DNA of 64,000 bases from a virus (IMGVR_UViG_3300028029_000006:88236-152235); one strand, 5' to 3'; shown: positions 2,718 to 52,314, counted from the first letter of the stretch. Numbers and translations: made by a program. Notes: generated from the letters alone by a model not told the origin.

Positions 2718-3073
2718 TTAAGGAATCAGATCATAGGTTTAAATGGCATTTATGTAAGACGTTTCAGAAGTCTCCAGACGATCCCTGGTTTGAGGAAATG
2801 AATCCTTTATTATATTTATGGATGTATGAAAGTTGGATTCAAGATTTAAGAGAAGATAACGAATCTAAACGTACTTATGCTATTTTGACTGGTTCCTTTG
2901 CTAATATGGAATTAGCTAAAAAGATGATTGATAAAGAAAACCCAACATTCCAATCATCAGATGAAGATTTTGAAGAGACTTATAGAATGATTGAAGAGGA
3001 TGTTGCTAATAAAGAATCAAAAACAAGACGTAGAGCAAAGAAAAGAAAACGATATGGTGTAATGAATGGCTGA
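2708..3073 (+). CDS. Frameshift extension of the chaperone (gpT part of a gpGT-like fusion)
   Basis: The -1 frame is open from 2708 (KKIVKESDHRFKWHLCKTFQKSPDDPWFEEMNPLLY...) and is continuous with the ORF called at 2798. Confidence 0.7.
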   Translation, partial: KKIVKESDHRFKWHLCKTFQKSPDDPWFEEMNPLLYLWMYESWIQDLREDNESKRTYAILTGSFANMELAKKMIDKENPTFQSSDEDFEETYRMIEEDVANKESKTRRRAKKRKRYGVMNG

Positions 3074-28731: not shown

Positions 28732-31662
28732 ATGACAAACAAAAGAGATGTATCTTTACCACATAATCTTTGGAATGACGCACAAAGAGTAGATAAAACG
28801 GATTTTAACTTAGAGCAAGATCGTAATATTGCGACTGATGCTTCTATTGTTCAAAACCATTTTGGTTCTGGCGTTCTTCTTAAAGGGCCTACTCAGAATG
28901 TTGTTTTTGATTCTGATAGTTTAACTTCAAGTCAAGCTTCAATTTTAGCAGCAAATAACTTTGATGGATTAGGTCTAGATGCTCATCAACAACCTAATGA
29001 TTCTAGTTTAGGAAATCAACTAGAAGTAGAATTAACTAATACTGTAGGAGCTGTTGGTCGATTTAGTACCAAAGTTGCTATTATTGGATTAGCTTTTGAT
29101 GGCACTCTTATAGTAGATAGGTTATATTTTTACAAAAATGAAAAACAAGTAACCAGAAATCATTATAAGCAAGTTTTATCTATATTTTTTAATGATTTTA
29201 AAGGGAATAATAATTGTTCACGCAATTTAGGTGGTTCAATTGTTATTAGCGAAGCCGCTTCTTTTCAATTGTCACGTGATTCAATTATGGTTGCGCAAGA
29301 TTTGGAACCTGATATTTTTTGGAGAGACTGGAAGGTATCTGATCCGGCATTAACTTTATTTACCACTATTCAAAATGGAATTGGTTCTAGTTATAGTGTT
29401 GACTCTTTAAATATCACAACAACTCCGAGGAATCTTAGGTTTTTGGAAGCGAATGATGTTGTTAAAAGATTAGGTCAAAAATTTCAAGCGCAAACTGATA
29501 ACATTCAAAAAATTACATTCTTAATGGGGGCTTCTTTAGATGGATATGTAGAAGCAACTCAATTTGATTGGTTAGGCGATATTGTTATTAGTGTATATTC
29601 ATTACAAACTACTACCAATTGCCCAACTGATATTGTTCCAGGTTTAGCTATTGAATTTGATCCTTCCAATGAACCTATTGCTCAATTAAGTTTTGATCAA
29701 GCATCTTTGGAAGCTCTTGGTTATGTATTAACTGATGTGGCGCAACCAATTGATTTTGTTTTTAATTCTACCAAGTTAAGTTCTGGTACTACTAGTACAG
29801 TTGTTTCGGATCGTTTTTATGCTGTTACAATTGGAAGGTCTGGTGCTTCCACATCTGGAACATTATTTTTAGAAATTGGTGCAGATAGGGTTGAAAACTC
29901 TAGACTAACTGTTTTCAGTGGTGTTTGGACAGATGTAGTTGAAGAAGATTTATGGTTTCAGGTTTGGTCAGATGCAGCTAAGATTGCTGATGGTCAAGGG
30001 TATGATAATGGCATTGGTATGCAGTTTAATAAAACCGCAACTGATCCTAATACTGGTGGAACAATTGATAATCAGATTAATTCAAAATCATTTACTGATA
30101 CTGGAGAAAGTGTATTAAATATTGGTGTGCTACAAGCTAGTGAAGATAAAACTGTTACTGAACAGGATGAGAGAACTGGTAATGATGTTTTTTCTAGAAA
30201 AGAGTTTGCCCCTGAGTTTAATTTTCTTAGTGAGAGTGGTTTAGCTAGTTTACGTACTAATACAGATCCAATTGTAATTGGTTGTGCAGAGGATTTGAAC
30301 CCTAAGCAAAATGTTAATTTAACTAAAACTCAAACATTTCCAGGTTTAGCTAAAGGCGACAAATTTAATGTTATTAATCCTGATCCTGATTTGTTATCAT
30401 TAAATTTAGTTGGTAGTAAATTAATTCCTAACGTTATTTGTTCTCAAGAAGACTTTTTAATTGTTAAAGTTGAATTATGTACAGATGGTTATGGAGATGT
30501 TAATGGTGACGGGATTATTGATTTAGCTGATGTTGCTAGGGCTTCTGAGTTAATTGGTGAAAGTTTAGATTTAGATTCTACTCAGCAAAAGATAGTTGAT
30601 GGATATTTTTCAACCTTAGAGGTTATTAGAGCGGATGTTGATGGAGATGGTTATGTTACATCTAGTGATGTAAGTTTGATCACTCAATTTGTTAACAAGG
30701 AGATATCATCATTTGAGGTTGGAGCAACTTTTCAACATTTATGTATCACTGTACAAAACACAGTTGGTCGTTATGATGGATATTGGGATTGTGATGGTTA
30801 TGTTAGAATTGATGGGTACAGTGGCACAACCATTGTAGATCCTGATGATTTAAGTGTTTCGCAAATTAAGTATCTTGGTAATTTTGTGGATCCAATGATT
30901 GATGCGGATGTTACGTTTTCCACAGTGCCATTTGCGGGGGTTACATATCAAATAATTTCTCAACCATTTTGGCAACCTCAATTTGTTGCATTTAATTCTG
31001 GTGCAAAAGTTGTTCCATCTTCTTTTTGTAGTTTGACTGGAAGTTTGCCATCTATTGATTGTGAAGCTGATCCTGTGTTGTTTTCTTGTGAAGATAGGAA
31101 CGCTATTACACCAGTTTGTGATCCTGGAGTTAATACATTTTATGTTCCTGGAGATTTAATTATTGATAGAGGGCAGATTAGAAGACCTGATGGAAACTTG
31201 TTTAGACCGGATTTTGAGGTTGGAAGCGTAACATTGCAGTTACCAGATACTCCTTTAGAGGAAGTTTCGTTGAATATTTTTGATAAATTTGTGGCAGATC
31301 GTGGAGATGGCTTGACACGAGCTTTGTTTCCTGCTATGAAGTATGCAGATTGTTCTACGGTTCAAGATGAGGACTTGAGTTTGAATAAAATTAGGTTCTC
31401 TGTGTCGATTCAGGCTTTCGTTCCCAACTTAGATGGTTATAGTGAAGAGGATGGGTATGGTATAGTTTGTGATGAAATAATAGGTATTTTTGTTGACCCT
31501 ACAACTGGTATTTTAAAATTATCTGTTAAAGATTTGTTTGTAGATCAAGTATTTAAAACATTAGTTACTAAAATTCATATAGATGTATATTTGAAAAAAT
31601 CTGGTTGGGTTAATACTCCAATAGATGTTACTCCAGAGCAATTTCCTGGGCTGTTATCTTAA
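28732..31662 (+). CDS. Baseplate/fibre-associated structural protein with a dockerin-like Ca-binding pair
   Basis: N-terminal WNDAQRVDKTDFNLEQ, as in baseplate-attached proteins. Contains GDVNGDGIIDLADV and ADVDGDGYVTSSDV. Confidence 0.55.
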   Translation: MTNKRDVSLPHNLWNDAQRVDKTDFNLEQDRNIATDASIVQNHFGSGVLLKGPTQNVVFDSDSLTSSQASILAANNFDGLGLDAHQQPNDSSLGNQLEVELTNTVGAVGRFSTKVAIIGLAFDGTLIVDRLYFYKNEKQVTRNHYKQVLSIFFNDFKGNNNCSRNLGGSIVISEAASFQLSRDSIMVAQDLEPDIFWRDWKVSDPALTLFTTIQNGIGSSYSVDSLNITTTPRNLRFLEANDVVKRLGQKFQAQTDNIQKITFLMGASLDGYVEATQFDWLGDIVISVYSLQTTTNCPTDIVPGLAIEFDPSNEPIAQLSFDQASLEALGYVLTDVAQPIDFVFNSTKLSSGTTSTVVSDRFYAVTIGRSGASTSGTLFLEIGADRVENSRLTVFSGVWTDVVEEDLWFQVWSDAAKIADGQGYDNGIGMQFNKTATDPNTGGTIDNQINSKSFTDTGESVLNIGVLQASEDKTVTEQDERTGNDVFSRKEFAPEFNFLSESGLASLRTNTDPIVIGCAEDLNPKQNVNLTKTQTFPGLAKGDKFNVINPDPDLLSLNLVGSKLIPNVICSQEDFLIVKVELCTDGYGDVNGDGIIDLADVARASELIGESLDLDSTQQKIVDGYFSTLEVIRADVDGDGYVTSSDVSLITQFVNKEISSFEVGATFQHLCITVQNTVGRYDGYWDCDGYVRIDGYSGTTIVDPDDLSVSQIKYLGNFVDPMIDADVTFSTVPFAGVTYQIISQPFWQPQFVAFNSGAKVVPSSFCSLTGSLPSIDCEADPVLFSCEDRNAITPVCDPGVNTFYVPGDLIIDRGQIRRPDGNLFRPDFEVGSVTLQLPDTPLEEVSLNIFDKFVADRGDGLTRALFPAMKYADCSTVQDEDLSLNKIRFSVSIQAFVPNLDGYSEEDGYGIVCDEIIGIFVDPTTGILKLSVKDLFVDQVFKTLVTKIHIDVYLKKSGWVNTPIDVTPEQFPGLLS

Positions 31663-32846
31663 TGCCTAAAGCTAAAAGTATTGAGTTTATTAGGGAGCTT
31701 GTCGAAAAAAAGGATGGTTATCTTTTAAGCGATTTTTATCAAAATTGTAACACCCCATTAAAGATTAAATGTAAAAACAATCATATATGGGTTACTAAAT
31801 ATAATAGTTTGAGGAAAGGTTGTTGGTGTATAATATGTGTAAGAAGAATAACAATTGGTCATGCTCAAAAAATAGCTTTAAAGCGTGGAGGAAAGTGTTT
31901 ATCTAAAGCTTTTAAAGGCAGTTATACTAAACTTGAGTGGGAGTGTAAATATGGTCATATTTGGAAAGCTCTTTATAAAGATGTTAAATCTAAAAGTAGT
32001 TGGTGCCCCTCTTGTTCAACTGGTTTATATGAAAGGTTATGTAGACAATTTTTAGAACAGGTTTTTAATAAAAAATTTCCTACTAAAAGACCTGGTTGGC
32101 TTTTAAATTCTAGAAATAACAGAATGGAATTAGATGGTTATTGTGAAGAATTAGGTTTAGCTTTTGAACATAATGGAAAGTATCATTATGAAGATATTCC
32201 GTTTTTCACTACAAAGTTATCATTTGAAGGTAGAAAAAAAGATGATTTGATGAAAATTTCTCTGTGTAAAGATAAAGGTGTTAAATTAATTATAATACCT
32301 GAGTTATATACAATTCTTCCAATAAAAAAGTTAAAAAATCATTTAAGGAATGAATTTATTAAACTTAATATTGATATACCAAGTAAATTTGATGAGGTTG
32401 ATGTAAATAAAATAAATTTAAACTCTTCTAAAATTGATGAGTTGAAAAAAATAGCTATTGATAAGGGTGGAGAATTAATTTCTAAGGTGTATTTAGGAGC
32501 AAATTATCATTTAACTTGGTCTTGTAATGAAGGCCATCATTGGAAAGCAACTCCTGCTATGGTTAAATTTCAAACTTGGTGCCCTCAATGTTATGAGAAT
32601 AGAAGAGGTGACACTTTAAAAAAACATTCTATTAACACTTTTAGAAAATTAGCTTTACAAAAAGGTGGCAAGTGCTTATCTTTAGATGAAGACTATGATA
32701 AGTTAAACAACAGTAGATTAAAATTTGTTTGTAATAAAGGTCATGAGTGGTTGATGTTAGTAAGTACTATTTTGTATAAAAAATCTTGGTGTCCTAAATG
32801 TGCCAAAATCCAAAAAAAAAGAAGCAAATTAGATGATTATTATTAG
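31662..32846 (+). mobile_element. Zinc-ribbon-repeat endonuclease (PD-(D/E)XK/Vsr-like), 2 + 2 repeats
   Basis: Repeats GGxCLS...WxCxxGHxW...WCPxC flank the core MELDGYCEELGLAFEHNGKYH. Confidence 0.75.
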
Positions 32847-33158: not shown

Positions 33159-33842
33159 ATGAAAGAATTAATTAAAGAAATAGTTAAAGAATATAGTTTA
33201 TCATTAAAATTTTATAAAGATAAGTTAACTAAGAAATCTAAAAAAGAATTTGTAGATAATGTATGTTGGAAAGAAACGTCTAGAGACCAAATATTGTCAG
33301 AAGATTTTATTAGAGAGTTTAAGGATGAAGTAATTTGGATTGATATATCTTATAATCAAAAATTATCAGAAGATTTTATTAGAGAATTTCAAGATAAAGT
33401 GAGTTGGGGTTGTATTTCTAGCTCTCAAGATTTATCTGAAGACTTTATTAGAGAATTTAAAGATGAAATATCTTTTCTAGAGGTATCTAGAAATAAAATT
33501 CTATCAGAAGATTTTATTAGAGAATTTAAAAACCGCGTAGATTGGATACAAATATCTGCTTACAACATATTATCGGAAGAGTTCATTAGGGAGTTTCAAG
33601 ATAAAGTGAGCTGGAGATGTATTTCTGCTGCCCAAAAACTATCAGAAGAATTTATTAGAGAATTTAAAAATGATGTTAAGTGGTATTCTATATCTATACA
33701 TCAAGAATTGTCAGAAGAATTCAGGAAAGAATTTAATCTTGCTCCTAAAGAAGAAATCATTAAAAACGTAACTTTATTATTAAAAAAAGATGCCGACAGG
33801 CTTAGAGCTAAAATAGCAAAGAATAATAAGAATTGGATTTAA
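33159..33842 (+). CDS. Tryptophan-repeat (23-aa) protein 1
   Basis: About 7 copies of W-x8-LSEDFIREFKD-x-V. Confidence 0.8.
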   Translation: MKELIKEIVKEYSLSLKFYKDKLTKKSKKEFVDNVCWKETSRDQILSEDFIREFKDEVIWIDISYNQKLSEDFIREFQDKVSWGCISSSQDLSEDFIREFKDEISFLEVSRNKILSEDFIREFKNRVDWIQISAYNILSEEFIREFQDKVSWRCISAAQKLSEEFIREFKNDVKWYSISIHQELSEEFRKEFNLAPKEEIIKNVTLLLKKDADRLRAKIAKNNKNWI

Positions 33843-33844
33843 AA

Positions 33845-34453
33845 ATGAAAGAAGATTTATCACATAAGCAGTGGATGAGAATGTCTGCACGGGAAGATTT
33901 AACCGAAGGTTTTATCAGGAAACATAAAAACAAAGTATGTTGGGGAAATATATTTAGACACCAAACGTTATCTGAAGATTTCATTATAGAATTTCAAGAT
34001 AAAGTAAGTTGGAGTGATATTACTTATCATAGAAAATTGTCAGAAGAGTTTATTAGAAAATTCAAAGATAAAGTAGATTGGCATACTGTGTCTTTTAAAC
34101 AAAACTTATCAGAAGATTTTATTAGAGAATTTAAAGATAAAGTAGATTGGCATACTGTGTCTAGATATCAAAAAATGTCTGAAGATTTCATCCGAGAATT
34201 TAAAAATGAAGTAGATTGGAAAGAAATTTTATCTTCACGAAAATTATCATTAAAATTTCTAATAGAGTTTCAGGATAAAATAAATTGGTTTTATGTTCGC
34301 GGAGATTTTAAAAGTTTAAATGAAGATTTTGTAAGGGAATTTCAGGACAAAATTAATTGGAGTCTTTTATTTATGAGTTCTTTGGGTTATCTATCTGAAA
34401 CTTATAATTTATCAGAAGGCTTTATAAAGGAATTTAAAGATAGGTTGGGTTGA
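33845..34453 (+). CDS. Tryptophan-repeat (23-aa) protein 2
   Basis: About 8 copies of the same unit. A 30-bp exact duplication starts at 34064 and 34133. Confidence 0.8.
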   Translation: MKEDLSHKQWMRMSAREDLTEGFIRKHKNKVCWGNIFRHQTLSEDFIIEFQDKVSWSDITYHRKLSEEFIRKFKDKVDWHTVSFKQNLSEDFIREFKDKVDWHTVSRYQKMSEDFIREFKNEVDWKEILSSRKLSLKFLIEFQDKINWFYVRGDFKSLNEDFVREFQDKINWSLLFMSSLGYLSETYNLSEGFIKEFKDRLG

Positions 34454-34824
34454 GTTATATAAATCTCGAAAATGTTTTTTTTATTTTTCCATTATTCTTC
34501 TTTATACTGGTAATGTATATATATATATACAAACTGTTAAAATTAGCTAATACATTTTATAAATTATCAACCACCCAAAATTGGTACCATGGCAGTCCAA
34601 CTTTGGGTTTTACTTCAGCGTCAGAGATTAAAGGTAATTTATTTTTTATCACTGAATCTTTTCAAATAGCGAAAGAATACGCAACTCATGCTATGTTATA
34701 TGGAGCACAAAAAATTACGAATGATGATCCTGTCATACCAACCGTTTATACTATAGGATTATCTTTTCCTTTATCTGTTGATTTTTATGAAGAATTTAAA
34801 CATAAAAGAGACGAGGCATTATGA
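34450..34824 (+). CDS. Hypothetical protein, weak ADP-ribosyltransferase-fold-like motif
   Basis: WYHGS...GNLFFITESFQIAKEYA. The true start may be ATG 34513. Confidence 0.3.
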   Translation: MSYINLENVFFIFPLFFFILVMYIYIYKLLKLANTFYKLSTTQNWYHGSPTLGFTSASEIKGNLFFITESFQIAKEYATHAMLYGAQKITNDDPVIPTVYTIGLSFPLSVDFYEEFKHKRDEAL

Positions 34825-35888
34825 GTTTATTAGCATTTGTTGAATATGTATGGGTTGATAATACAGATCCAGTTAAAAAATTACGTTCAAAAGCCAGAAT
34901 GATGGAGGTTGGACATGAGGAATTTGAGTGGTCTCTTCTTGAAGAAGATTGGAATTTTGATGGATCAAGCACCAATCAAGGCACATCTGATAATTCAGAA
35001 AGAATTCTTAAACCAGTTCGAATTTATTCAGATCCTTTTAGAGGTGGTCATAATAAGATTGTGCTTTGCGAAGTAATGATGCCTGATGGCAAACCTCATG
35101 AAAGCAATACGAGATCTCAACTAAGAAAAAGATTTGAAGAAAACAAAGAGCTGAAAACTTGGTGGGGATTTGAACAAGAATATTGTTTAATGAAAGATGG
35201 TAATATTCTAGGTTGGCCAACAAATGGAAACCCCGATCCACAAGGCCCATATTACTGCGGCGTAGGCTCGAATGAGGTGGTGGGTAGAGAAGTGGTTGAA
35301 GAGCACGCACAAGCCTGCCTGGACACAGGAATCATGCTTTACGGAATCAATGCTGAGGTAATGCTTGGTCAATGGGAATTTCAGGTTGGTCATAGAGGTT
35401 TTTCAACTGATGAAGAAGCTGATCCTCTTAAAGTTAGTGATGATCTTTGGATGGCTAGATATTTATTGTATAGAGTTGGGGAGAAATATAAAATTTGGGC
35501 AACCTTAGATCCTAAACCTAAGAAAGGTAACTGGAATGGCTCAGGTATGCATACTAATTTTAGTGATTGCCGTATGCGTGACGAAAAATATGGTAAAACT
35601 CGTATTAAAGATGTTTTAGCTCATTTTAAAGATACTCATTCAGAACATCAAAAATGTTATGGGCATAATAACAGTGAAAGATTAACTGGAGAACATGAGA
35701 CTTCCCCTTTTGATAGTTTTAGTTATGGAGTCGCTAACCGTGGATCATCTATTAGGATGCCAAATATCACCAAAGAAAAAGGTTATGGGTATTTAGAAGA
35801 TAGACGTCCCGCAGCTAATGCTGATCCTTATGAGGTTATTGATAGAATTTTAAAGACTCTTGTTGAAACTAGGACGGTTATATTATGA
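34821..35888 (+). CDS. glnII: Glutamine synthetase, type II
   Basis: EYVWVD, LRSKAR, WNFDGSST, GFEQEY, GPYYCGVG, GINAEVMLGQWEFQVG, WNGSGMHTNFS, RLTGEHETS, NRGSSIR, GYLEDRRPAANADPY. Confidence 0.92.
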   Translation: MSLLAFVEYVWVDNTDPVKKLRSKARMMEVGHEEFEWSLLEEDWNFDGSSTNQGTSDNSERILKPVRIYSDPFRGGHNKIVLCEVMMPDGKPHESNTRSQLRKRFEENKELKTWWGFEQEYCLMKDGNILGWPTNGNPDPQGPYYCGVGSNEVVGREVVEEHAQACLDTGIMLYGINAEVMLGQWEFQVGHRGFSTDEEADPLKVSDDLWMARYLLYRVGEKYKIWATLDPKPKKGNWNGSGMHTNFSDCRMRDEKYGKTRIKDVLAHFKDTHSEHQKCYGHNNSERLTGEHETSPFDSFSYGVANRGSSIRMPNITKEKGYGYLEDRRPAANADPYEVIDRILKTLVETRTVIL

Positions 35889-36106
35889 AATATCAGGTTA
35901 AAAAGTATCAAAGTTTTCCTGGTGGAACTGTTCATTGTGTAAAAAGCTATGGTTCAAGACTGACCAACTCAGCATCCGAAGCTTGGTTTGAAGAAATTTG
36001 TCATAGAGAAAATTATAAACTAGTTTTAAAACTTGGTTGGTTTATTAAAGATTATCAATGGTTTATTGATGGAGAAGAATTTAATGAAAAAATGAAAGGT
36101 AAGTGA
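35885..36106 (+). CDS. Hypothetical protein
   Basis: ATGA overlap with the GS stop. Confidence 0.45.
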   Translation: MKYQVKKYQSFPGGTVHCVKSYGSRLTNSASEAWFEEICHRENYKLVLKLGWFIKDYQWFIDGEEFNEKMKGK

Positions 36107-36110
36107 TATT

Positions 36111-36596
36111 ATGGCAATAGATGATGCATTTGATGTAAAACTGCAACCGAAGGTAATAAGGTGGAAACTTGATAAAGTTAATTGTAACTATTTTTGGAAT
36201 GATTTATGTGATTTTTTATCTGATGATAATGAGCCACCTCCAGTAGTTGAATTATCGATAGAGCAACTTTACTCTTTGGAGTTACCTACATGTGGCTGTG
36301 GTGATTTATTTATGTCAATGGCATGTTTTGTTTGGGCTCTTCATGGTTGCCAAGCAGGTAATTTATATAGATTATCGGAAATGCTTAATGATTGTCATGT
36401 CCACCTTCTTTTAATGGTATTAGAGGATGCTGGTCTTATTATGCATAGTTATAGTACTTATGATGCTAGTTTAACATTAGCGGGTCGTTCTGCTCTTTAC
36501 GCTTTTCATAAATATGGTTTTTCTCCTAAGGTTTTTGATAAAGTTAGCTGTGATGAAACATGGCCATTTGATGAACATGGCGATTTAATAATGTAA
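36111..36596 (+). CDS. Hypothetical phage protein, possible winged-helix C-terminus
   Basis: LMVLEDAGLIMHS...ASLTLAGR pattern. Confidence 0.45.
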   Translation: MAIDDAFDVKLQPKVIRWKLDKVNCNYFWNDLCDFLSDDNEPPPVVELSIEQLYSLELPTCGCGDLFMSMACFVWALHGCQAGNLYRLSEMLNDCHVHLLLMVLEDAGLIMHSYSTYDASLTLAGRSALYAFHKYGFSPKVFDKVSCDETWPFDEHGDLIM

Positions 36597-36613
36597 GTAT
36601 GGTAAAATAATAA

Positions 36614-36940
36614 ATGATTACATTAACAGATAAAGCAAAAGCCAAAATTCTAAGAATAATTGAAGAGGAAGAATTGGAAGATCAACATCTTAGAATCAAT
36701 ATTTTAGGCGGTAAGTGTGCCGGCTTTTCTTTTGATTTGTTTTTTGAAGAAGTAAAACCAACAGATGATGATTTGATATTTAATTTTGATAGCATAAATG
36801 TTGTTATTAACCCATTAGTAGGGTTATATATTGATGGCACCGAGATTGATTATATAAATTCATTATTTGGTGGGGGTTTTAAATTTACTAATACTAAATT
36901 TAGTAGTCAATGTGGATGTGGGAACAGTTTTAGCTTGTAA
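36614..36940 (+). CDS. iscA: Fe-S cluster A-type carrier (IscA/HesB/ErpA family)
   Basis: ITLTDKA, GGKCAGFSF, GGGFKFTN and CGCGNSF, with all three conserved Cys. Confidence 0.9.
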   Translation: MITLTDKAKAKILRIIEEEELEDQHLRINILGGKCAGFSFDLFFEEVKPTDDDLIFNFDSINVVINPLVGLYIDGTEIDYINSLFGGGFKFTNTKFSSQCGCGNSFSL

Positions 36941-36958
36941 TAATATGGTATTAAAATT

Positions 36959-37894
36959 ATGAATAAAAAACTAGCAGTAACGACTCCACAGATTTTATCA
37001 TATTTAGCTGGGTTTGTAGATGGGGATGGTTCCATTACTATAATAGCAAGAAATGATGGAAAAAAGACTGGTTATAGACCAAAATTAACTGTGTATAATT
37101 GTAACCCCAAAATGGTTCAAATTATGAACACTTATTTTGGAGCTGGGTGAGTTAGGGCTAAAAAAACAGGTAAAATTAAACACGATAATTGGCGCCCTGT
37201 TTATGAATGGTGTATTTATAATGATAGAGCTGTTGCTGCCATTAAAAGCATTAATCCATACTTAATAATAAAAAAAAGACAAGCTAGACTTGTATTAAGA
37301 TTTAACAGAATAAATAAGAAGTATAATAGAACTTTAAGACGTTGGCATCCAAAAATTAGCGATAAGTGTTTTATTTTGTTTGGTAAGCTTAAAAGTGAAT
37401 GTAATGCTATTAATTGTAGAGGTATTAAAAAGGCTATTAGGAAAGCCCCAGATTCTGATTATATTAATGAATATGTTGATTCATATTTTGCTGGTTTATT
37501 AGATTCTGATGGGTCTTTTGTTATTTATGGGAAGAATAATATGCCTAAAGTTAATTTATCTTCAAACAATTTGCAAGTAATCCATATTTTTAATGAGTTA
37601 TATGGTGGTAGTTATTATGTTAGAGATCGTAAAAATAAAGGTTGGAATTTATCTTATCAATGTGATATAACTGCAGTTGCCTCTAAAGTTCCACTAAAAA
37701 GAATAACACCATATTTAATTTTAAAAAAAAAGCAAGCTAAATTACTTTGGGGTATAGTTAATGTACGTAAATATTTTCAGTACAACCGCGATCCTATTGC
37801 TAAAGCTAAGAAAAATAAAATATGTGGTATTTTAAAAGAGAAATGTTCATCTTTAAACAAAAAATCAGTACAAAACCAACAGATGATGATTTAG
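36959..37894 (+). pseudogene. Double-motif LAGLIDADG homing endonuclease interrupted by one in-frame TGA (37148-37150)
   Basis: YLAGFVDGDGSI and YFAGLLDSDGSF lie in the same frame. Apart from that single TGA the frame is open from 36959 to 37894. Confidence 0.8.
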
Positions 37895-38058
37895 TATTTA
37901 ATATTGATAGCATCACTGTTGTTATTAATCAATTAGTAGATTTATATGTTGATGGTACTGAAATTGATCATGTCGATTCGTTTCTTGGCGGAGGATTTAA
38001 ATTTACTAACGCTAAGTTTAGTAGCCAATGTGGTTGCATGAAAAGTTTTAGTTTGTGA
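37872..38058 (+). pseudogene. Displaced duplicate of the iscA 3' half
   Basis: Colinear with 36754-36940 (187 bp, 34 mismatches by hand count, about 82% identical, no indels). Encodes KPTDDDL...CGCMKSFSL. Confidence 0.9.
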
Positions 38059-38064
38059 TATTTT

Positions 38065-39159
38065 ATGAGAGTTAAGATTCAGCAATTTTTATTTGGTAAT
38101 ACACTTATGTCTTGGGCAATTGTGGGCCAAAACATAGGTCGTTCATTAATTAAATTAGGTCATGATGTAGAGTTTGTGTCTACAGATGAACCTCAAGATA
38201 AATATATTCCAAATGATTTAAAAGAACATGTTAGGAAAACACCTACAGGTGTTTATGATATGCAAATTAGCTATACGGCTATGCATAATTTCCCTAATTA
38301 TTTACGTCATGGCAATAAAAATAGATTTGGGATTTGGAATTTAGATTCTACGGTAGTTCCTAAAGATATGGTTAAGTGGCATAATTATTGTGATCAAATG
38401 TGTCCTTCATCAGATTTTGCTAAGCAAATCTTTTTAGATGCTAATATTCCTGAAAGTAAATTGGTGACAGTTCCTCATGGTATTAATATAGACGAGTTTA
38501 AAACTGACAAGAAATATAAATTAAAAACAACTAAGAATAAAAAAATCTTACTTAATATTGCTACTCCACATAAACGAAAGAATATTAAAAATACTCTAAA
38601 TGCACTTGGGAAAGCTTTTACCAATAAAGACGATGTTTGCTTGGTCATTAAAGTTAATACAAAAAAACAAAGAGATGCAAAATTTCATGTTAATTTTATT
38701 GACTTATTATCTAAATTCAAAAAGAAATTCAAAAACCATCCAGAGATTGAGCTTGTTCAAGGTTTCATTCCAAGTTTAGCTGAACTTTATAACTCTTGCG
38801 ATATAATTTTTATGATGAGCAATCTTGAATGTTTTTGGTTGCCTGGATTGGAAGCTTTGGTTAATGGTAAAATTGTAATAGCTACCAATCATGGAGGTCA
38901 GCTACAATATCTTAATAAAGATAATTCCGTTTTAATTGATGGTAAAATAATTAGAATGCCCACAGATTATCAATATTGGGTACCTTCTCCTCATGCTAAA
39001 ATGTTTGATGCTGATATAAACCATGCAGTTAAGCAATTAAGATATGTTGTAAATAATTATGATGATTTGTTAATCAAGTTAACTCCCAATATTAAAAAAA
39101 CGGTTGAACAGTTTACTTGGTGTAATGTTGCTAAACAATTTTTGGAGATGTGTAAATAA
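38065..39159 (+). CDS. Glycosyltransferase, GT4/GT-B
   Basis: VTVPHGINIDEF, HKRKNIKNTL, LYNSCDI...ECFWLPGLEALVNGKIVIATNHGG. Confidence 0.85.
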   Translation: MRVKIQQFLFGNTLMSWAIVGQNIGRSLIKLGHDVEFVSTDEPQDKYIPNDLKEHVRKTPTGVYDMQISYTAMHNFPNYLRHGNKNRFGIWNLDSTVVPKDMVKWHNYCDQMCPSSDFAKQIFLDANIPESKLVTVPHGINIDEFKTDKKYKLKTTKNKKILLNIATPHKRKNIKNTLNALGKAFTNKDDVCLVIKVNTKKQRDAKFHVNFIDLLSKFKKKFKNHPEIELVQGFIPSLAELYNSCDIIFMMSNLECFWLPGLEALVNGKIVIATNHGGQLQYLNKDNSVLIDGKIIRMPTDYQYWVPSPHAKMFDADINHAVKQLRYVVNNYDDLLIKLTPNIKKTVEQFTWCNVAKQFLEMCK

Positions 39160-39681: not shown

Positions 39682-40056
39682 ATGAAAGAAGAAAAAGAAG
39701 AGTTAATTGTACATTGGTCTAATTGGGCGTCTCAACCTACTATTATGGTTAGCTGTAGTAAGCTCGGGTATACAGTGCAACCAAGAAAAGAACATTTACC
39801 AACATATGTTTGTATAGCGCTTGGTCCTGATGATAAAATTATTAACTACTCATTTGATACTCGTGAAGTAACATGTGAAGAATGCAAGAGAAATAAATCA
39901 TTCATTAATTATTTAGAAAAGCGTTTAGATTATGATGAAAGATTAAAAGAAAGCGGTTTATCTGAAGATGATTATATTGAAAGTTTAATTAAAATTAGGA
40001 AGAACAGGAAGAAAAAAAATGAAAGAGTTAAGTATCATAATACCTGTTTTCAATAA
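39682..40056 (+). CDS. Paralog with one His/Cys domain
   Basis: EELIVHWSN...SC...SFDTREVTCEECK. Confidence 0.6.
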   Translation: MKEEKEELIVHWSNWASQPTIMVSCSKLGYTVQPRKEHLPTYVCIALGPDDKIINYSFDTREVTCEECKRNKSFINYLEKRLDYDERLKESGLSEDDYIESLIKIRKNRKKKNERVKYHNTCFQ

Positions 40057-40696
40057 TTGCCAATTTACTAAAGCTTGTTTATCTGACTTATCTAAATTAG
40101 AAATAGATAAAGAGATTATCATTGTTGACAATAATAGCTCAGATGATACTTTTAATATAGTTTCTCAATTTGAAGATGTTATTTATTTAAAAAATAATAT
40201 TAATGAAGGGTTTTCTAAAGCTAATAACAAAGGTTATAAAGAATCTTGTGGTGAATACGTATTATTTCTTAATAACGACATTAAAGTTTTAGATAGAATA
40301 AAAGATTGGCCACAATTATTAATAGATTCATGTGATAATGGCGTTGTTGGTACTCAATCTGGGTTAATTGATTCCAAATATAAGTTTGTTAAAGAAGGTA
40401 AATTTGATCCTAATATTAAAGGTGGTTATTTGAGTGGATGGTGTGTTTTAGCAAAACGTTCAACTTGGGATAGTTTAGTTTTAGATGAACAAATAGGTCC
40501 ATGGAATAGTTTATATTATCTTTATTATGAAGATAATGATTTGTCTTTCAGAGTTAAAAAAGCAAAATTACCATTGAAAATAATTGATGTTCCCGTACAT
40601 CATTACTCAAGAGTTACAGGAAAAAAATTCAACATGTTTCACCACTTAAACAAGTCAAAAAGAATTTTTAAGAAAATCTGGAAAAATATAGTTTAG
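40019..40696 (+). CDS. Glycosyltransferase, GT2
   Basis: LSIIIPVFNN, IIIVDNNSSD, NEGFSKANN, LFLNND, YYEDND. Confidence 0.88.
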   Translation: MKELSIIIPVFNNCQFTKACLSDLSKLEIDKEIIIVDNNSSDDTFNIVSQFEDVIYLKNNINEGFSKANNKGYKESCGEYVLFLNNDIKVLDRIKDWPQLLIDSCDNGVVGTQSGLIDSKYKFVKEGKFDPNIKGGYLSGWCVLAKRSTWDSLVLDEQIGPWNSLYYLYYEDNDLSFRVKKAKLPLKIIDVPVHHYSRVTGKKFNMFHHLNKSKRIFKKIWKNIV

Positions 40697-40700
40697 AATT

Positions 40701-41804
40701 ATGAATAAAATTAAAAAAGCTAAAGAAAAAGCCTTAAGCAGAGGGGGGGAGTGTTTATCTGAAACATGTAATAAAGTAACGGATAAACTTAAGTGGATTT
40801 GTGATAAAAATCATACATGGATTACATCTTATAGTACCGTTATTAACAGTTCTTGGTGTCCTGAATGCAGTTATGAAAAAAAAAGGTTATCTATTGAAAA
40901 AATAAATAAAATAGTTGGTGATAAATTTGGGGGTTTGTGCATTTCTAAAAAATATAAAAATAACCAAACTAAGCTTTTGTGGCAATGTAAAAAGGGGCAT
41001 ATTTGGAGTGCTATTTATGGAAATATACAAAACCATAATCGTTGGTGCCCACATTGTGCTGGTAATGCTAAGTTAAATATTAATCAAATGAATGAGATTG
41101 CAAGCAAAAGAGGAGGTAAATGTAACTCTATTAAGTACACTAATAATCACACTAAATTATCTTGGGAGTGTTTTATTGGGCACCGATGGGAAATGAGACC
41201 TAATGATGTAATTCAAAAAGGAAATTGGTGCCCTGAATGTAATAATTCAATTGGAGATAGGTGTTGTAAGATTATATTTGAGAAATCTACAGGTAGAATA
41301 TTTAAAAAAATACGACCTGATTGGCTTAAAAATCATAATGGAAATAATTTAGAGCTTGATGGTTATTGCTCCAGTTTAAATATTGCGTTTGAATATAATG
41401 GGGTTTATCATAATGAATTAGTTTTTACTTTTCATGACGAAAACGATTTAAAAAAAGTTAAAACTCATGATGAAATTAAAAGAAATATTTGCGCAGATTT
41501 GGGTATTAAATTATTCGTAATAAATGAACCTCGCCCATTTTCATTAAAAAAAATAAAAGAAGAAATTAAAAGAAAAGTTGATTTTAATGTTGTTGATGAT
41601 ATCAATAATATTGATTTGTTAGTTTATGCTAATGATAAGTTAGAAAAATATAGAGAGATAGCTAAATTAAAAGAGGGAAGCTGTTTAGATAATAAATGGA
41701 TTAATTCTCAATATAAATTAAGATGGAAATGTAAGAATAATCATATTTTTGAAGCAACTCCAAACGGAATACAGCAAGGTAAATGGTGCCCAAAATGCAA
41801 GTAA
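40701..41804 (+). mobile_element. Zinc-ribbon-repeat endonuclease, 3 + 1 repeats
   Basis: Same repeat as 31662, with core LELDGYCSSLNIAFEYNGVYH. Confidence 0.75.
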
Positions 41805-42613
41805 ATAAAATTATAATCTTATGTTTAAATTGGAACGGTTGTAGGTTGTTAAAAAAATCAATCCCGTCACTTAAAAATAACTTAAAAAATTTAAAACAAA
41901 TTAACTATGAAATATTCATTAGAGATAATGGCAGCTCTGATCAATCAATTAATTATTTAAATGAAAATCATTCAGACGTTAACTTATTGGAAATTAATCA
42001 TAATCGTGATTCTTTTTCAGTTGGAGTTAATTCTTTATTTAATTTAGCTAAGCCTAATGATAAAGATGTTATTTTATTATTAAATAATGATATTGAGTTT
42101 AAAGATGATAAATCCCTTTATAATATGATTAATGTTATGAATGAAACTGGAGCAGCTGTTGTTGGCGCCCGACTTTTGTATAAAAATGGAAATATAAGTC
42201 ATAATGGAATTATATTTTCGCCTAAATATGGGAATATGCCTTGGCATTATAGAGAAGGTAAAAGGTCACGACCTTTTGATCTTTGTTCAAGAGAATTCCA
42301 GGCGGTAACAGCTGCTTGCTGTCTTATTAAGGTTAAAAATTTTAAAGCAGCGGGGGGGCTAAATGAGAATCTGAAATGGGCATTTGAAGATGTAGATATG
42401 AATTTAGAGATTTCAATTAATCAAAAAGAAAAAGTAATATGTTGTGGGAGTACAAACATAATACATCTAACATCTGCCTCTTTAAAGAAAAACCCAGTTA
42501 ATAAATTATTTCTAAACAAAAATGTTAAATATTTTAAAAAGAAGTGGTTTGGAAAGTATAGTTTGGATCATGATAAATACTTAAATGACTCAAATTATAA
42601 ATTAATTAAATGA
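41795..42613 (+). CDS. Glycosyltransferase, GT2
   Basis: LCLNWN, IRDNGSSD, LLLNND, VGARL, AVTAAC, FEDVD. Likely start ATG 41795. Confidence 0.88.
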   Translation: MQVNKIIILCLNWNGCRLLKKSIPSLKNNLKNLKQINYEIFIRDNGSSDQSINYLNENHSDVNLLEINHNRDSFSVGVNSLFNLAKPNDKDVILLLNNDIEFKDDKSLYNMINVMNETGAAVVGARLLYKNGNISHNGIIFSPKYGNMPWHYREGKRSRPFDLCSREFQAVTAACCLIKVKNFKAAGGLNENLKWAFEDVDMNLEISINQKEKVICCGSTNIIHLTSASLKKNPVNKLFLNKNVKYFKKKWFGKYSLDHDKYLNDSNYKLIK

Positions 42614-49888: not shown

Positions 49889-50869
49889 ATGATTAAAGTA
49901 TTATATCTCCCATTAAATTTTGGCCAAATAATCCAAGAAGGAAATTACGATGCGTTCCGGGAAGCTGGATGTCATCTTGATGTATTTGATTATTATACTA
50001 TTTATCTTAATAATAATAAAAACATCAATAAAGTTAGAGAGTTGTTTATTAATGTGGTTAAGAAGGTAAAACCAGATCTTCTTTTTATGCAAATTCAACA
50101 TACAAATATTATTAATGGTGTTACTGTTAATAAAGCTAAGAGACTAAATCCAAATATGGTTGTATCCAATTGGACGGGTGATTCCCGAGGGTTTGTTCCT
50201 AAAACATATAAGGATGTAGCTCGGGTTTCGGATTATAATTTTATATCATCAACTGGTCAGTTGGATATGTTTCGAAAAGAAATTGACAAACCGGTAAACT
50301 ATTTACAAATTGGGTATAACCCTAAGTTATATTACCCAGATCCTAAGCCTAATAATAATTTTACCTGGGATTGTATTTTTGTGGCTAATCACAACCCTAA
50401 AGAAAAATATCCAGGAACTAGAGAAAGAACTAGGACTTGTGAATTGTTAAGAAATAAGTTCAGAGAACGATTTTGTTTGTATGGAGATGGTTGGTCAAGA
50501 AAGCTTAGATCGAAAGGTTCCATTGATCAAAAAGTTTTAGCGACAACATATCATAAATCCAAAGTTTTGATAAGCGTTTCTCACTTTAACGATATCGATC
50601 ATTATTTTTCTGACAGGCTCTTAATGTGCATGGCTTCGGGTCGTCCAACGATATCTTATAGATTTCCTAAATACGAATCTTATTTTGCGAATAAGGGCGA
50701 TCTTGTTATAGCAAATACTATACAGGAAATAGGAGACAAAGTAGATTGGTTAATTAATAATCCAGATATGGCTGATTTTATTGGACGATCTGGCGCTGCC
50801 AAAGTATTTGCCGAACATACTTATTTAAGTAGAGTTAATGAATTATTGAAAATGGTTGGGCTTAGGTGA
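49889..50869 (+). CDS. CgeB/DUF3880-like glycosyltransferase
   Basis: WTGDSR, IGYNPKLY, SDRLLMCMASG, KVFAEHTYLSRV. Confidence 0.75.
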   Translation: MIKVLYLPLNFGQIIQEGNYDAFREAGCHLDVFDYYTIYLNNNKNINKVRELFINVVKKVKPDLLFMQIQHTNIINGVTVNKAKRLNPNMVVSNWTGDSRGFVPKTYKDVARVSDYNFISSTGQLDMFRKEIDKPVNYLQIGYNPKLYYPDPKPNNNFTWDCIFVANHNPKEKYPGTRERTRTCELLRNKFRERFCLYGDGWSRKLRSKGSIDQKVLATTYHKSKVLISVSHFNDIDHYFSDRLLMCMASGRPTISYRFPKYESYFANKGDLVIANTIQEIGDKVDWLINNPDMADFIGRSGAAKVFAEHTYLSRVNELLKMVGLR

Positions 50870-52161
50870 GTAAAAAGTTAGGAATTAGAACTTGTCGAGA
50901 GGCAGCATTGCTAAACAATGGGCTTTGTTTAAGCGATAAATATGGCAAGATTCAAGACGCTTATAAGTGGAAGTGTAGCCAAGGTCATGTTTGGGAAACA
51001 TCATTCGTTTCAGTTAGACAGGGTTCTTGGTGCCCAAAATGTGCATTTAAAAGCAATAGAACAATTGATAATTGTATTGATTTGGCAAAATCTCGGGATG
51101 GTTATTTTTTAAGCGAAGAATACACAAATGCTAAAACTAAATATATCTGGAAATGCAAGGAAGGGCATATTTGGAGAGCCACTTATGATTCAGTATCTTC
51201 TAAAAAAACTTGGTGTCCATCTTGTTCCAACCGAAAAAGAAAAACAGTAAAAGACTGTCAAAACTTAGCCATTAAAAATGGCGGAAGTTTCCTTAATGAG
51301 AGATACTCTAATGCTCATACTAAATATAAGTGGAGGTGTAAAGAGGGGTGTATTTGGGAAGCCACATATAATCAAATAGAACAAGGTTATTGGTGTCCGA
51401 AATGTTATGGCGCAATTAGCATTCAGGATTGTATTGATATTGCTACCGCTAAAGGTGGGAAGTTCCTGAGTGAATGTTATGTTAATAACAAAACAAAAAT
51501 GTTGTGGCAGTGTAAGTATGGGCATCAGTGGGAGTCTAGCTTAGCGTCTATTAAGTATAAGAACCGCTGGTGCCCAAAGTGTCAAGGTTTTAATAGCAAA
51601 AGAAATCCTCCAACCACACAAGATTGTAATAAAATAGCAAATTCTAATGGGGGCAAATTTCTTAGTAGTGAATATGTAAAATCAAATTCTAAGTATTTGT
51701 GGGAATGTAAAAAAGGTCATAAGTGGAAATCAACATATAATGCTGTTCAGCAAGGATATTGGTGCTCTAAATGTAGAGCCTCTAAAAGTCAGAGATATAT
51801 TTATAATATTTTAAAAGAGCATTTTAGTGCTTGCACAGTTATGTTTAACTATAAAGATTTTGATTGGTTGAAAACTTCTGCTAGGGGTAAGATGGAGTTG
51901 GATATATTTGTTATTGAGCTAAAGTTAGCAATAGAATATGATGGGGAACAGCATTTTATGCCTGTAAAGTTTGGTGGTATGTCAGAAAAGCAAGCTGCAA
52001 AAGCCTTCAGCAAGCAAAAGGAAAGAGATATTATTAAAAACAATCTCATTAAACAAAACAGCAATGATGTTAAGTATTTTGTAAGGTTTAATTATAAAGA
52101 AAATTTAAAAAAAGAATACATTATTGATAAGATTAAGTTAGTAACACATGAAAATCTATAA
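50866..52161 (+). mobile_element. Zinc-ribbon-repeat endonuclease, 5 repeats plus C-terminal nuclease
   Basis: Five WxCxxGHxW...WCPxC units, then MELDIFVIELKLAIEYDGEQHF. Confidence 0.78.
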
Positions 52162-52314
52162 TTGTTTCCAAGATATTGTTAAAAAAGTTGAATAATTAAT
52201 TAATAATCCAGATATAGCTAATTTTATTGGAGAATCTGGGCGGCCAAAGTTTTCGCAGAACATGCTTATTTAAGCATAGTTAATGAATTATTAAAAATGG
52301 TAGGTTTAAAATAA
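52154..52314 (+). pseudogene. Decayed duplicate of the 3' end of the CgeB-like gene
   Basis: Colinear with 50708-50869: QDIVKKVE*LINNPDIANFIGESG/AKVFAEHAYLSIVNELLKMVGLK versus QEIGDKVDWLINNPDMADFIGRSGAAKVFAEHTYLSRVNELLKMVGLR. It carries a premature TAA and a 1-bp deletion. Confidence 0.88.

What the first reader, a model, noticed from the sequence alone, without database searches (positions are those of the whole stretch)
36614..38058. Homing by 3'-end replacement, case 1: LAGLIDADG plus a spare iscA tail
The layout is intact iscA, then LAGLIDADG, then a second iscA 3' half (187 bp, about 82% identical, first 21 nt identical, many synonymous differences). The nuclease stop codon lies inside the second copy. 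The best explanation is that the element arrived carrying its own cleavage-resistant iscA 3' end, fused it in frame to the resident 5' half and pushed the old 3' end downstream. This lets it invade a coding gene without splicing. The pattern is known for fungal mitochondrial atp6/atp9 endonuclease elements; I do not know it as a described phage iscA element.
Basis: partly seen in the sequence, partly recalled or inferred. Interest (0 to 1): 0.78.

Follow-up and report, generated by a model that had tools for sequence, protein, structure and literature searches.

The report
Selfish nuclease with replacement iscA tail
In a 409-kb uncultivated phage, a selfish DNA-cutting gene (now carrying one stop codon) sits behind the iron-sulfur gene iscA and is followed by a dead second copy of the iscA tail, a way of invading a gene without breaking it that is known from fungal mitochondria and yeast.

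Summary
The layout is: intact iscA (36614-36940), a double-motif LAGLIDADG gene (36959-37894, one in-frame TGA at 37148-37150), then a second iscA 3' end (37872-38060). The second copy is 189 nt, ungapped and 82% identical to 36754-36942. Its first 21 nt are identical, and the nuclease stop TAG straddles the end of that block.

The two tails differ mostly at synonymous sites (dN/dS 0.165). Neutral decay of one copy after a local duplication fits poorly (P about 0.001 to 0.03). The downstream copy has lost invariant IscA residues, so it is the dead one. No intron signal was found. An independent assembly of the same run agrees base for base.

Best reading, about 0.65: a free-standing homing-endonuclease cassette brought a diverged iscA 3' end and displaced the resident one. 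The nuclease has since been hit by a nonsense mutation.

This could not be tested directly. No relative shares more than 53% identity, so no nuclease-free allele exists to compare.

The same layout occurs again at 49889-52314 with an unrelated zinc-finger nuclease. It matches fungal mitochondrial mORFs and yeast WHO elements. This scan has already noted the layout in several other phages. It is a new member of a known kind, of moderate interest.

The parts
36614..36940 (+). Intact iscA/HesB-type A-type Fe-S carrier gene (108 aa, stop TAA). Proposed hybrid: resident 5' part plus incoming 3' part.
   Evidence: ORF. PF01521 E 3.9e-14 over residues 2-104. The three Cys (GGKCAGF and CGCG) are present in the translation. 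It keeps the residues that are invariant in 76 homologs.
36754..36774 (+). 21-nt block identical to 37872-37892. It marks the left edge of the duplicated segment and is the likely neighbourhood of the exchange or cleavage point.
   Evidence: P 0.012 for an initial identical run this long. There is no in-register similarity to its left (2 of 24, read).
36775..36942 (+). Functional iscA 3' end. Proposed to have arrived with the nuclease gene.
   Evidence: It is 79% identical to 37893-38060, and the differences are mostly synonymous. Foreign origin is inferred, not shown.
36959..37894 (+). Free-standing double-motif LAGLIDADG homing endonuclease gene, 311 codons, starting 18 nt after the iscA stop. 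Its last 7 codons and its TAG stop are encoded by the start of the iscA remnant.
   Evidence: Translation. PF00961 E 3.7e-9 and PF14528 E 3e-6. PDB hits I-MsoI (E 2.7e-13) and I-CreI. Both motifs (LAGFVDGDGS, FAGLLDSDGS) fall on invariant columns. It is single-copy in the genome.
37148..37150 (+). In-frame TGA at codon 64 of the nuclease gene. Probably a recent nonsense mutation.
   Evidence: It is also present in the Logan contig. TGA ends 96 of 317 long ORFs and no tRNA with anticodon TCA is encoded. The two nearest homologs have R at this column, so CGA to TGA is a plausible origin. The 248 codons after it are open.
37872..38060 (+). Displaced iscA 3' remnant (codons 48-108 plus stop TGA at 38056-38058). 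It has no iscA 5' half, so it lacks the first Cys ligand.
   Evidence: 189 nt, 82% identical to 36754-36942. PF01521 positions 48-109. Y to H, G to M (in CGCG) and N to K occur at columns where 70, 76 and 57 of 76 homologs agree with the upstream copy. All of the amino-acid branch length falls on this copy.
49889..52314 (+). Second instance in the same window. Glycosyltransferase gene 49889-50869, then a 431-aa zinc-finger (DUF4379/CapR) nuclease-like ORF 50866-52161, then a decayed copy of the GT 3' end (52184-52304, 85% identical to 50738-50859, with a 1-nt deletion).
   Evidence: Self-BLAST, Pfam, tblastx, alignment.

Best explanation
This is a free-standing LAGLIDADG homing-endonuclease cassette that invaded the phage iscA gene by replacing its 3' end.

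Proposed sequence of events (inferred):
1. The nuclease, made from a related co-infecting phage, cut a nuclease-free iscA near codon 47.
2. The left broken end invaded the donor's diverged iscA. It copied the donor's iscA 3' end plus the nuclease gene.
3. The copied strand was joined to the right broken end. The join was either illegitimate, or used an iscA fragment already present behind the nuclease gene in the donor.

The result is a complete, working hybrid iscA, then the nuclease gene, then the resident 3' end pushed downstream as a dead fragment. The nuclease reading frame now ends inside that fragment. No splicing is needed.

The cassette was under selection until recently. The remnant has picked up a few damaging changes, and the nuclease gene has just acquired one nonsense codon. 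This is the first step of the usual decay of a fixed homing element.

Shown: the layout, the family assignments, the purifying-selection signature between the two tails, the damage in the downstream tail, the absence of an intron, and a second case in the same genome.

Inferred: the foreign origin of the upstream tail, the position of the cut, the resistance of the hybrid allele, and the repair route.
For: - Layout and coordinates.
- Family assignments: PF01521, PF00961 and PF14528; PDB I-MsoI and I-CreI; both catalytic motifs conserved.
- Divergence between the tails: pS 0.48, pN 0.117, dN/dS 0.165. Differences by codon position are 10, 5 and 20.
- Neutral decay of one copy: simulations give 21 expected amino-acid changes against 14 observed. 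P is 0.001-0.004 for the amino-acid count alone and 0.0008-0.003 with no stop as well, even with a strong transition bias.
- Duplication in place with a constrained upstream copy and a neutral downstream copy: P about 0.02-0.03. Models with both copies constrained fit.
- Which copy is dead: the downstream copy lost residues that are invariant or nearly so in 76 homologs, and the upstream copy did not. The tree puts the whole amino-acid branch on the downstream copy.
- No group I or II intron or any other Rfam family in 35800-38800. A TAA stop and an 18-nt spacer separate iscA from the nuclease ORF, so it is not an intein.
- The same layout occurs with an unrelated nuclease at 49889-52314. The window holds four nuclease-like genes in all.
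- Two assemblies agree.
- Precedents with the same architecture, some with experimental support: fungal mitochondrial mORFs (PMC3630166) and yeast WHO elements (PMC7282813).
Against: - There is no nuclease-free allele and no close relative to show which tail is resident. The best iscA relative is 53% identical. IMG/VR gives at most 42%. A metagenome scan with the downstream tail gave only a 34% hit. The source run has no joint that skips the element (contigs only).
- Both tails are about equally far from all relatives, 25.7 versus 24.9 identities out of 62.
- The tree assigns all amino-acid change to the downstream copy. A local duplication followed by decay would predict the same.
- The rejection of that rival rests on only 61 codons and reaches only P about 0.03.
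- The 21-nt identical block means every window of up to about 22 bp of a putative native site L-X-R is still present in one of the two copies. This holds unless the native 5' flank differed, so immunity is unexplained.
- The nuclease carries a stop codon, so present-day activity is doubtful.
- The nearest LAGLIDADG homologs in other phage contigs have no flanking gene-end repeats.
Confidence: 0.65

Rival explanations
1. Local tandem duplication. The iscA 3' end was duplicated in place, for example during illegitimate insertion of the nuclease gene or during repair of a nuclease-made break. The downstream copy then drifted while the upstream copy stayed under selection. No foreign iscA sequence is involved.
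For: - The two tails are each other's closest relatives, with support 1.0, and the whole amino-acid branch lies on the downstream copy.
- The downstream copy lost invariant residues.
- No donor lineage is known.
- Nuclease-driven segmental amplification in phages has been reported (PMC13096335; abstract only, seen).
Against: - dN/dS is 0.165 against an expected value of about 0.5 or more.
- Simulation of this exact scenario gives at most 14 amino-acid differences without a stop in only 2-3% of runs. Indels were not modelled.
- dS of about 0.77 would require a useless 189-nt fragment to survive a very long time without indel or stop in a phage genome, while the nuclease ORF collected only one stop.
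Confidence: 0.17
2. Passenger fragment. The upstream iscA is wholly resident. The nuclease gene arrived behind it carrying a fragment of its previous host's iscA 3' end, so the downstream copy is the foreign one.
For: - It explains the purifying-selection signature equally well.
- Yeast WHO10 elements carry FBA1 fragments with them to new loci (PMC7282813).
- In repeated homing, co-conversion makes the downstream fragment partly donor-derived anyway.
Against: - It needs an insertion exactly at the end of an intact homologous gene without using the homology inside it.
- It gives no reason for the sharp homology edge with a 21-nt identical block in mid-gene.
- It is not distinguishable from the main reading with present data.
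Confidence: 0.12
3. Assembly artefact. Two strain variants of iscA were stitched into a false tandem arrangement.
For: The source is a metagenome, and only one run holds the sequence.
Against: - Two assemblies of the run agree over the whole 2.1 kb with no differences at depth 35.5. No alternative contig was found.
- The only shared block is 21 nt, shorter than the 31-mers Logan uses (my own knowledge of Logan).
- The nuclease ORF reads continuously into the remnant.
- A second such layout exists in the same genome.
Confidence: 0.03

Closest known systems
Mobile endonuclease ORFs (mORFs) with carboxy-terminal duplication in fungal mitochondria: Allomyces macrogynus atp6; Glomus sp. atp6, atp9, cox2, nad3; Rhizopus atp9; Mortierella cox2 (PMC3630166)
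   Same: The order is host gene core, inserted in-phase C-terminus, endonuclease ORF, then displaced native C-terminus directly behind the ORF. The duplicated ends are diverged: 64-81% identity of the inserted ends to the close relative G. irregulare there, 82% between the two copies here. In Glomus atp9 the inserted end stops before a separate ORF, as here.
   Different: The host here is a phage auxiliary gene in a 409-kb tailed phage, not an organelle respiratory gene. In the fungal cases, nuclease-free sister species showed the native end to be the downstream one. In some fungal cases the ORF is fused in frame to the host gene. Here it is separate.
WHO elements of Torulaspora and Lachancea yeasts, which home into FBA1 (PMC7282813)
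   Same: [quoted passage not shown] It leaves duplicated 3' fragments behind the nuclease gene, and that fragment can serve as the downstream homology arm. Resistance comes from allelic differences, not from interruption of the site. Nuclease genes commonly decay to pseudogenes.
   Different: WHO proteins are intein-derived LAGLIDADG plus zinc-finger proteins in nuclear genomes and form multi-copy clusters. Cleavage and allele specificity were shown by experiment there. Nothing was assayed here.
Intronless homing by free-standing phage endonucleases: the T4 Seg and Mob families. MobE is characterised in PMC2790892; the review is PMC2988022
   Same: A free-standing nuclease gene sits next to the gene it targets in a phage. 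Co-conversion of flanking DNA replaces part of the neighbour gene with the donor's allele. This mechanism is from my own knowledge of SegF, SegG and MobE.
   Different: Those events use homology on both sides and leave no duplicated gene end. The terms 'duplicat', 'pseudogene', 'remnant' and 'LAGLIDADG' do not occur in the T4 review. The T4 enzymes are GIY-YIG or HNH, not LAGLIDADG.
LAGLIDADG homing endonucleases I-MsoI and I-CreI, and monomeric double-motif enzymes
   Same: The sequence matches I-MsoI at E 2.7e-13. There are two LAGLIDADG motifs with conserved acidic residues.
   Different: The characterised enzymes are intron-encoded in organelles. This one is free-standing, at most 30% identical to any database protein, and interrupted by a TGA.

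Membership tests
LAGLIDADG homing endonuclease (double-motif, monomeric) | Two LAGLIDADG motifs, each with the catalytic acidic residue, in two tandem alpha-beta domains | tested here: met
   PF00961 covers residues 16-101 and PF14528 covers residues 172-234. G18, D21, D23, G24, S25 and G179, D182, D184, G185, S186 fall on invariant columns. PDB hits are I-MsoI and I-CreI.
LAGLIDADG homing endonuclease (double-motif, monomeric) | Uninterrupted reading frame giving an active enzyme | tested here: not met
   There is one in-frame TGA at codon 64. TGA is a normal stop in this genome and no matching suppressor tRNA is encoded. The next in-frame start is at 37376, which would drop most of domain 1.
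LAGLIDADG homing endonuclease (double-motif, monomeric) | Site-specific cleavage of the nuclease-free allele | not testable with these tools
   This needs expression and a cleavage assay.
3'-end-replacement homing cassette (fungal mORF / yeast WHO type) | Order: intact host gene, nuclease gene, then a duplicated 3' fragment of the host gene starting in mid-gene | tested here: met
3'-end-replacement homing cassette (fungal mORF / yeast WHO type) | The two 3' ends diverged as parts of functional genes in different lineages, not by decay in place | tested here: met
   dN/dS is 0.165. Neutral decay gives P about 0.001. Mixed in-place decay gives P about 0.03. Support is moderate because only 61 codons are available.
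3'-end-replacement homing cassette (fungal mORF / yeast WHO type) | The downstream fragment matches nuclease-free relatives better than the in-frame end does | tested here: inconclusive
   No relative above 53% identity exists. Both tails are equidistant from what does exist.
3'-end-replacement homing cassette (fungal mORF / yeast WHO type) | The hybrid allele resists the nuclease and the native allele is cut | not testable with these tools
   No assay is possible. The 21-nt identical block leaves the basis of resistance open.
Intron- or intein-borne homing endonuclease | Group I or II ribozyme around the ORF, or an in-frame intein fusion with the host protein | tested here: not met
   There is no Rfam match at E up to 1 in 35800-38800. 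A TAA stop plus an 18-nt spacer lies between iscA and the ORF. The Hom_end match is only marginal: 17.3 bits, below the 21.1 cut-off, E 0.0052, over 22 residues.
IscA/HesB A-type iron-sulfur carrier (PF01521) | Full-length domain with the three conserved Cys (one central, then CxC near the C-terminus) | tested here: met
   The upstream gene covers profile positions 3-110 of 110, and Cys are present in GGKCAGF and CGCG. The downstream fragment covers only profile positions 48-109 and reads CGCM.

The most novel reading that the evidence does not exclude
Carrying a portable, recoded gene end may be a general strategy in huge phages. It would let unrelated free-standing nuclease families (LAGLIDADG here, a zinc-finger-array nuclease 13 kb away) invade the coding sequence of auxiliary and glycan genes without introns or inteins. 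The displaced fragment would then serve as the downstream homology arm, so the cassette could home between phages that share no synteny. The single TGA might be a leaky stop that keeps nuclease levels low rather than a dead end.
Probability: 0.2. Interest if true: 0.65.

Novelty: new member of a known kind. Interest (0 to 1): 0.4.

Why it matters
The finding shows how a selfish nuclease can enter a phage protein-coding gene without a self-splicing carrier and without harming the gene. It also shows that such events make hybrid genes and move gene segments between phages.

For annotation, the 71-78-aa 'iscA-like' ORF at 37822-38058 is a relic and not a second Fe-S gene. The split nuclease calls (63 aa and 172 aa) are one broken gene.

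The locus offers a defined pair of natural substrates for testing the specificity of a new LAGLIDADG enzyme.

The mechanism itself is already described in fungal mitochondria and yeast, so the advance is one of host range and not of principle.

Tried and rejected
- Nuclease-free allele or close relative. I searched phage DNA, phage tblastn, IMG/VR with the iscA protein, the 5.8-billion-protein search and a JGI metagenome scan with the downstream tail.
- Relatives of a virus record cannot be drawn.
- Sequencing runs: only the source run holds the stretch. Laying its contigs showed no variant, no joint skipping the element and no alternative allele. Contigs drop rare variants, so this says nothing about absence.
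- Contexts of the nearest iscA homologs show no synteny and no nuclease.
- Contexts of the nearest LAGLIDADG homologs show free-standing genes in phage contigs with no flanking gene-end repeats.
- Intron reading rejected.
- Alternative genetic code for the TGA rejected. TGA ends about 30% of long ORFs and no tRNA with anticodon TCA is encoded.
- A shared TATGGTA motif upstream of both iscA and the nuclease gene is not enriched: 9 matches against 8.7 expected.
- Other local repeats from the self-BLAST are not this layout. In L034 the repeats are paralogous domains. In L035 an internal 104-nt fragment sits next to a repeat protein. L036 has tiny ORFs.
- Promoter and terminator scans gave nothing above chance.
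- I first thought both cases start with an identical block of about 20 nt. In case 2 weaker homology continues to the left of that block, so I dropped that claim.
- Literature: no phage paper in the held library describes nuclease-linked duplication of a gene 3' end. This is a limit of the library, not proof of absence.

Full report
**Setting.** The window is bases 88236-152235 of a 409,147-bp IMG/VR virus record rated 96% complete. It has about 32% G+C, and nearly all genes lie on one strand. It has a baseplate-wedge homolog (phrog_6) and 21 tRNA genes, so it is a huge tailed phage. The only public run that holds the locus is an epibiont metagenome, which is probably its source. The locus lies between a glutamine-synthetase-like gene (34821-35888), two unknown ORFs, and a long block of glycosyltransferase genes that starts at 38065.

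**Observation.**
- iscA is 36614-36940, 108 aa, a full-length PF01521 domain with all three Cys.
- Eighteen bases after its TAA stop, a 311-codon frame runs from 36959 to 37894 with a single internal stop, TGA at 37148-37150.
- That frame is a double-motif LAGLIDADG enzyme. It matches PF00961 and PF14528 and I-MsoI and I-CreI in the PDB. Both motifs fall on invariant columns of an alignment with its nearest relatives, which are at most 30% identical.
- Bases 37872-38060 repeat 36754-36942: 189 nt, 82% identical, no gap.
- The first 21 nt are identical. The chance of an initial run this long is 0.012. To the left of this block there is no in-register similarity, so the homology edge is sharp.
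- The nuclease TAG stop (37892-37894) straddles the end of the identical block. The last seven nuclease codons are therefore written in iscA-derived DNA in another frame.
- Logan's separate assembly of the same run reproduces all 2.1 kb, including the TGA, with no differences.

**What the divergence says.**
- Over 62 aligned codons there are 17.5 synonymous and 17.5 non-synonymous differences. This gives pS 0.48, pN 0.117 and dN/dS 0.165.
- If one copy had simply decayed, 33 substitutions with the observed 2:1 transition bias should give about 21 amino-acid changes, and should introduce a stop half the time. The observed values are 14 changes and no stop. P is 0.001-0.004 for the amino-acid count alone and 0.0008-0.003 with no stop as well, over the bias values tried.
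- For a duplication in place with a constrained upstream copy and a neutral downstream copy, P is 0.02-0.03. Indels were not modelled.
- Models in which both copies were constrained for most of the time fit well.
- Most of the 18% divergence therefore arose while both tails belonged to working iscA genes, that is, in two lineages.
- The downstream copy has since been released from selection. It alone changed Y to H, G to M (in the CGCG motif) and N to K, at columns where 70, 76 and 57 of 76 homologs agree with the upstream copy. A tree of the C-terminal region puts the whole amino-acid branch on it.
- A rough split of dN suggests that the remnant has been neutral for only about a tenth of the total divergence. 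This is my inference.
- That short neutral period agrees with the remnant having no indel and the 933-nt nuclease frame having only one stop.

**The TGA.** TGA ends 96 of 317 long ORFs, and the genome encodes no tRNA that reads it. The two nearest homologs have arginine at that column, so a CGA to TGA change is a simple origin. The next in-frame start is at 37376, so without readthrough most of domain 1 is lost. I read this as a recent nonsense mutation, the first step of decay after fixation. A leaky stop cannot be excluded.

**Alternatives.**
- No group I or II intron or other Rfam family is present. The ORF is separated from iscA by a stop and a spacer. It is therefore neither an intron nor an intein.
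- A chimeric assembly is unlikely. The shared block is shorter than Logan's 31-mers (my own knowledge of Logan).
- A local duplication remains possible at roughly one chance in six.
- A variant in which the downstream fragment is the passenger cannot be separated from the main model without a nuclease-free allele.

**Generality.**
- A self-BLAST of the genome, filtered for single-copy local direct repeats, recovered a second case. It consists of a glycosyltransferase gene (49889-50869), a 431-aa ORF with five DUF4379/CapR zinc-finger units and an unassigned C-terminal domain (50866-52161), and then a relic of the glycosyltransferase 3' end. The relic is 85% identical over 122 nt, with weaker protein-level similarity from about 52154 and a 1-nt deletion.
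- Two further zinc-finger nuclease-like genes in the window (31662-32846 and 40701-41804) have no such relic.
- The nearest LAGLIDADG homologs in other phage contigs have none either.
- The layout is therefore an occasional outcome, not a fixed property of a nuclease family.

**Mechanism.** The structure is what one-ended homologous invasion followed by second-end capture would give. The nuclease cuts a nuclease-free iscA near codon 47. The left end copies the donor's iscA tail and the nuclease gene. The product is then joined to the right end, which begins with the 21-nt block.

The nuclease tail departs from its relatives exactly at the junction. The relatives continue from LNK with a conserved YGVYKPSLIDLEA segment, and this one reads KSVQNQQMMI and then stops. 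This is consistent with an illegitimate join, but at 30% identity the argument is weak.

Once formed, such a cassette can home by ordinary double-strand-break repair. It would use the iscA 5' part and the remnant as homology arms, as proposed for WHO elements (PMC7282813).

One point does not fit simply. Because the 21-nt block is present in both copies, any site of about 22 bp in a native sequence made of the present 5' half plus the downstream tail is still present in the genome. Resistance must therefore lie in differences in the unduplicated 5' flank, or the site must span the whole block.

**Comparison and novelty.** The architecture matches fungal mitochondrial mORF hybrids (Allomyces atp6; Glomus atp6, atp9, cox2, nad3; PMC3630166) and yeast WHO elements. 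In phages, the closest described process is intronless homing with co-conversion, which leaves no duplicate. The T4 review does not contain the words 'duplicat' or 'remnant'. My searches of the held library found no phage description. iscA itself appears alongside phage auxiliary-gene terms in five papers of the library (titles and abstracts only, not read further).

Earlier notes of this scan list the same layout in several other phages: an HNH-AP2 case in a gut phage, an RNA polymerase gene end in a lake jumbo phage, P22-like gp10, and T4-like gene 60. They also list case 2 of this genome. Those notes are unchecked leads, but they mean the pattern is not new to this scan.

**Verdict.** This is a real, cleanly delimited, probably recently inactivated 3'-end-replacement cassette. 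It is a new member of a known kind. Confidence in the mechanism is about 0.65 and interest is about 0.4.

Noticed in passing
window 49889-52314: Second spare-tail case. A glycosyltransferase gene is followed by a 431-aa DUF4379/CapR zinc-finger nuclease-like ORF, and then by a decayed copy of the glycosyltransferase 3' end (85% over 122 nt, 1-nt deletion). The nuclease stop falls at the start of the relic.
   Followed up: partly
window 31662-32846 and 40701-41804: Two more DUF4379/CapR zinc-finger-array proteins. The first matches phrog_559, which is annotated 'HNH endonuclease'. Neither has a duplicated gene end beside it. The window therefore holds four nuclease-like selfish genes within 20 kb.
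   Followed up: partly
genome G000:C1:250663-250734 (outside the window): A tRNA with anticodon CTA, which reads TAG, is encoded. TAG is the rarest stop, ending 28 of 317 long ORFs. Partial TAG reassignment or suppression late in infection is possible.
   Followed up: no
window 33245-34353 and many genome sites (e.g. G000:C1:42500-47000, 181300-182300, 210300-211100, 243000-244200, 316200-316900): A large dispersed family of coding repeats, with about 200 self-BLAST hits per position at 65-86% identity and a register shift of about 69 nt. It includes the two ORFs just upstream of the glutamine-synthetase gene.
   Followed up: no
genome G000:C1:64715-64852 (outside the window): A 492-aa open frame contains a stretch 43% identical to IscA residues 58-101 (E 2.9e-5). 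It may be a second Fe-S-carrier-like domain in a larger protein.
   Followed up: no
L035:1538-1641 and 2926-3029 (G000:C1:270037-270140 and 271425-271528): A 104-nt internal fragment of a 156-aa ORF is repeated at 94% identity 1.3 kb downstream, behind a 238-aa protein made of ILSEDFIREF-like repeats. No Pfam match was found, and it does not have the gene-end layout.
   Followed up: partly
window 40019-42613: Two GT2-family glycosyltransferase genes (225 aa and 276 aa) flank the 367-aa zinc-finger nuclease-like gene. Both begin with the N-terminal part of the GT2 domain, so they look like paralogs and not like a split gene.
   Followed up: no
window 34821-35888: A glutamine-synthetase-like gene (Gln-synt_N plus Gln-synt_C, 355 aa) lies three genes upstream of iscA. 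It is an unusual auxiliary gene for a phage.
   Followed up: no
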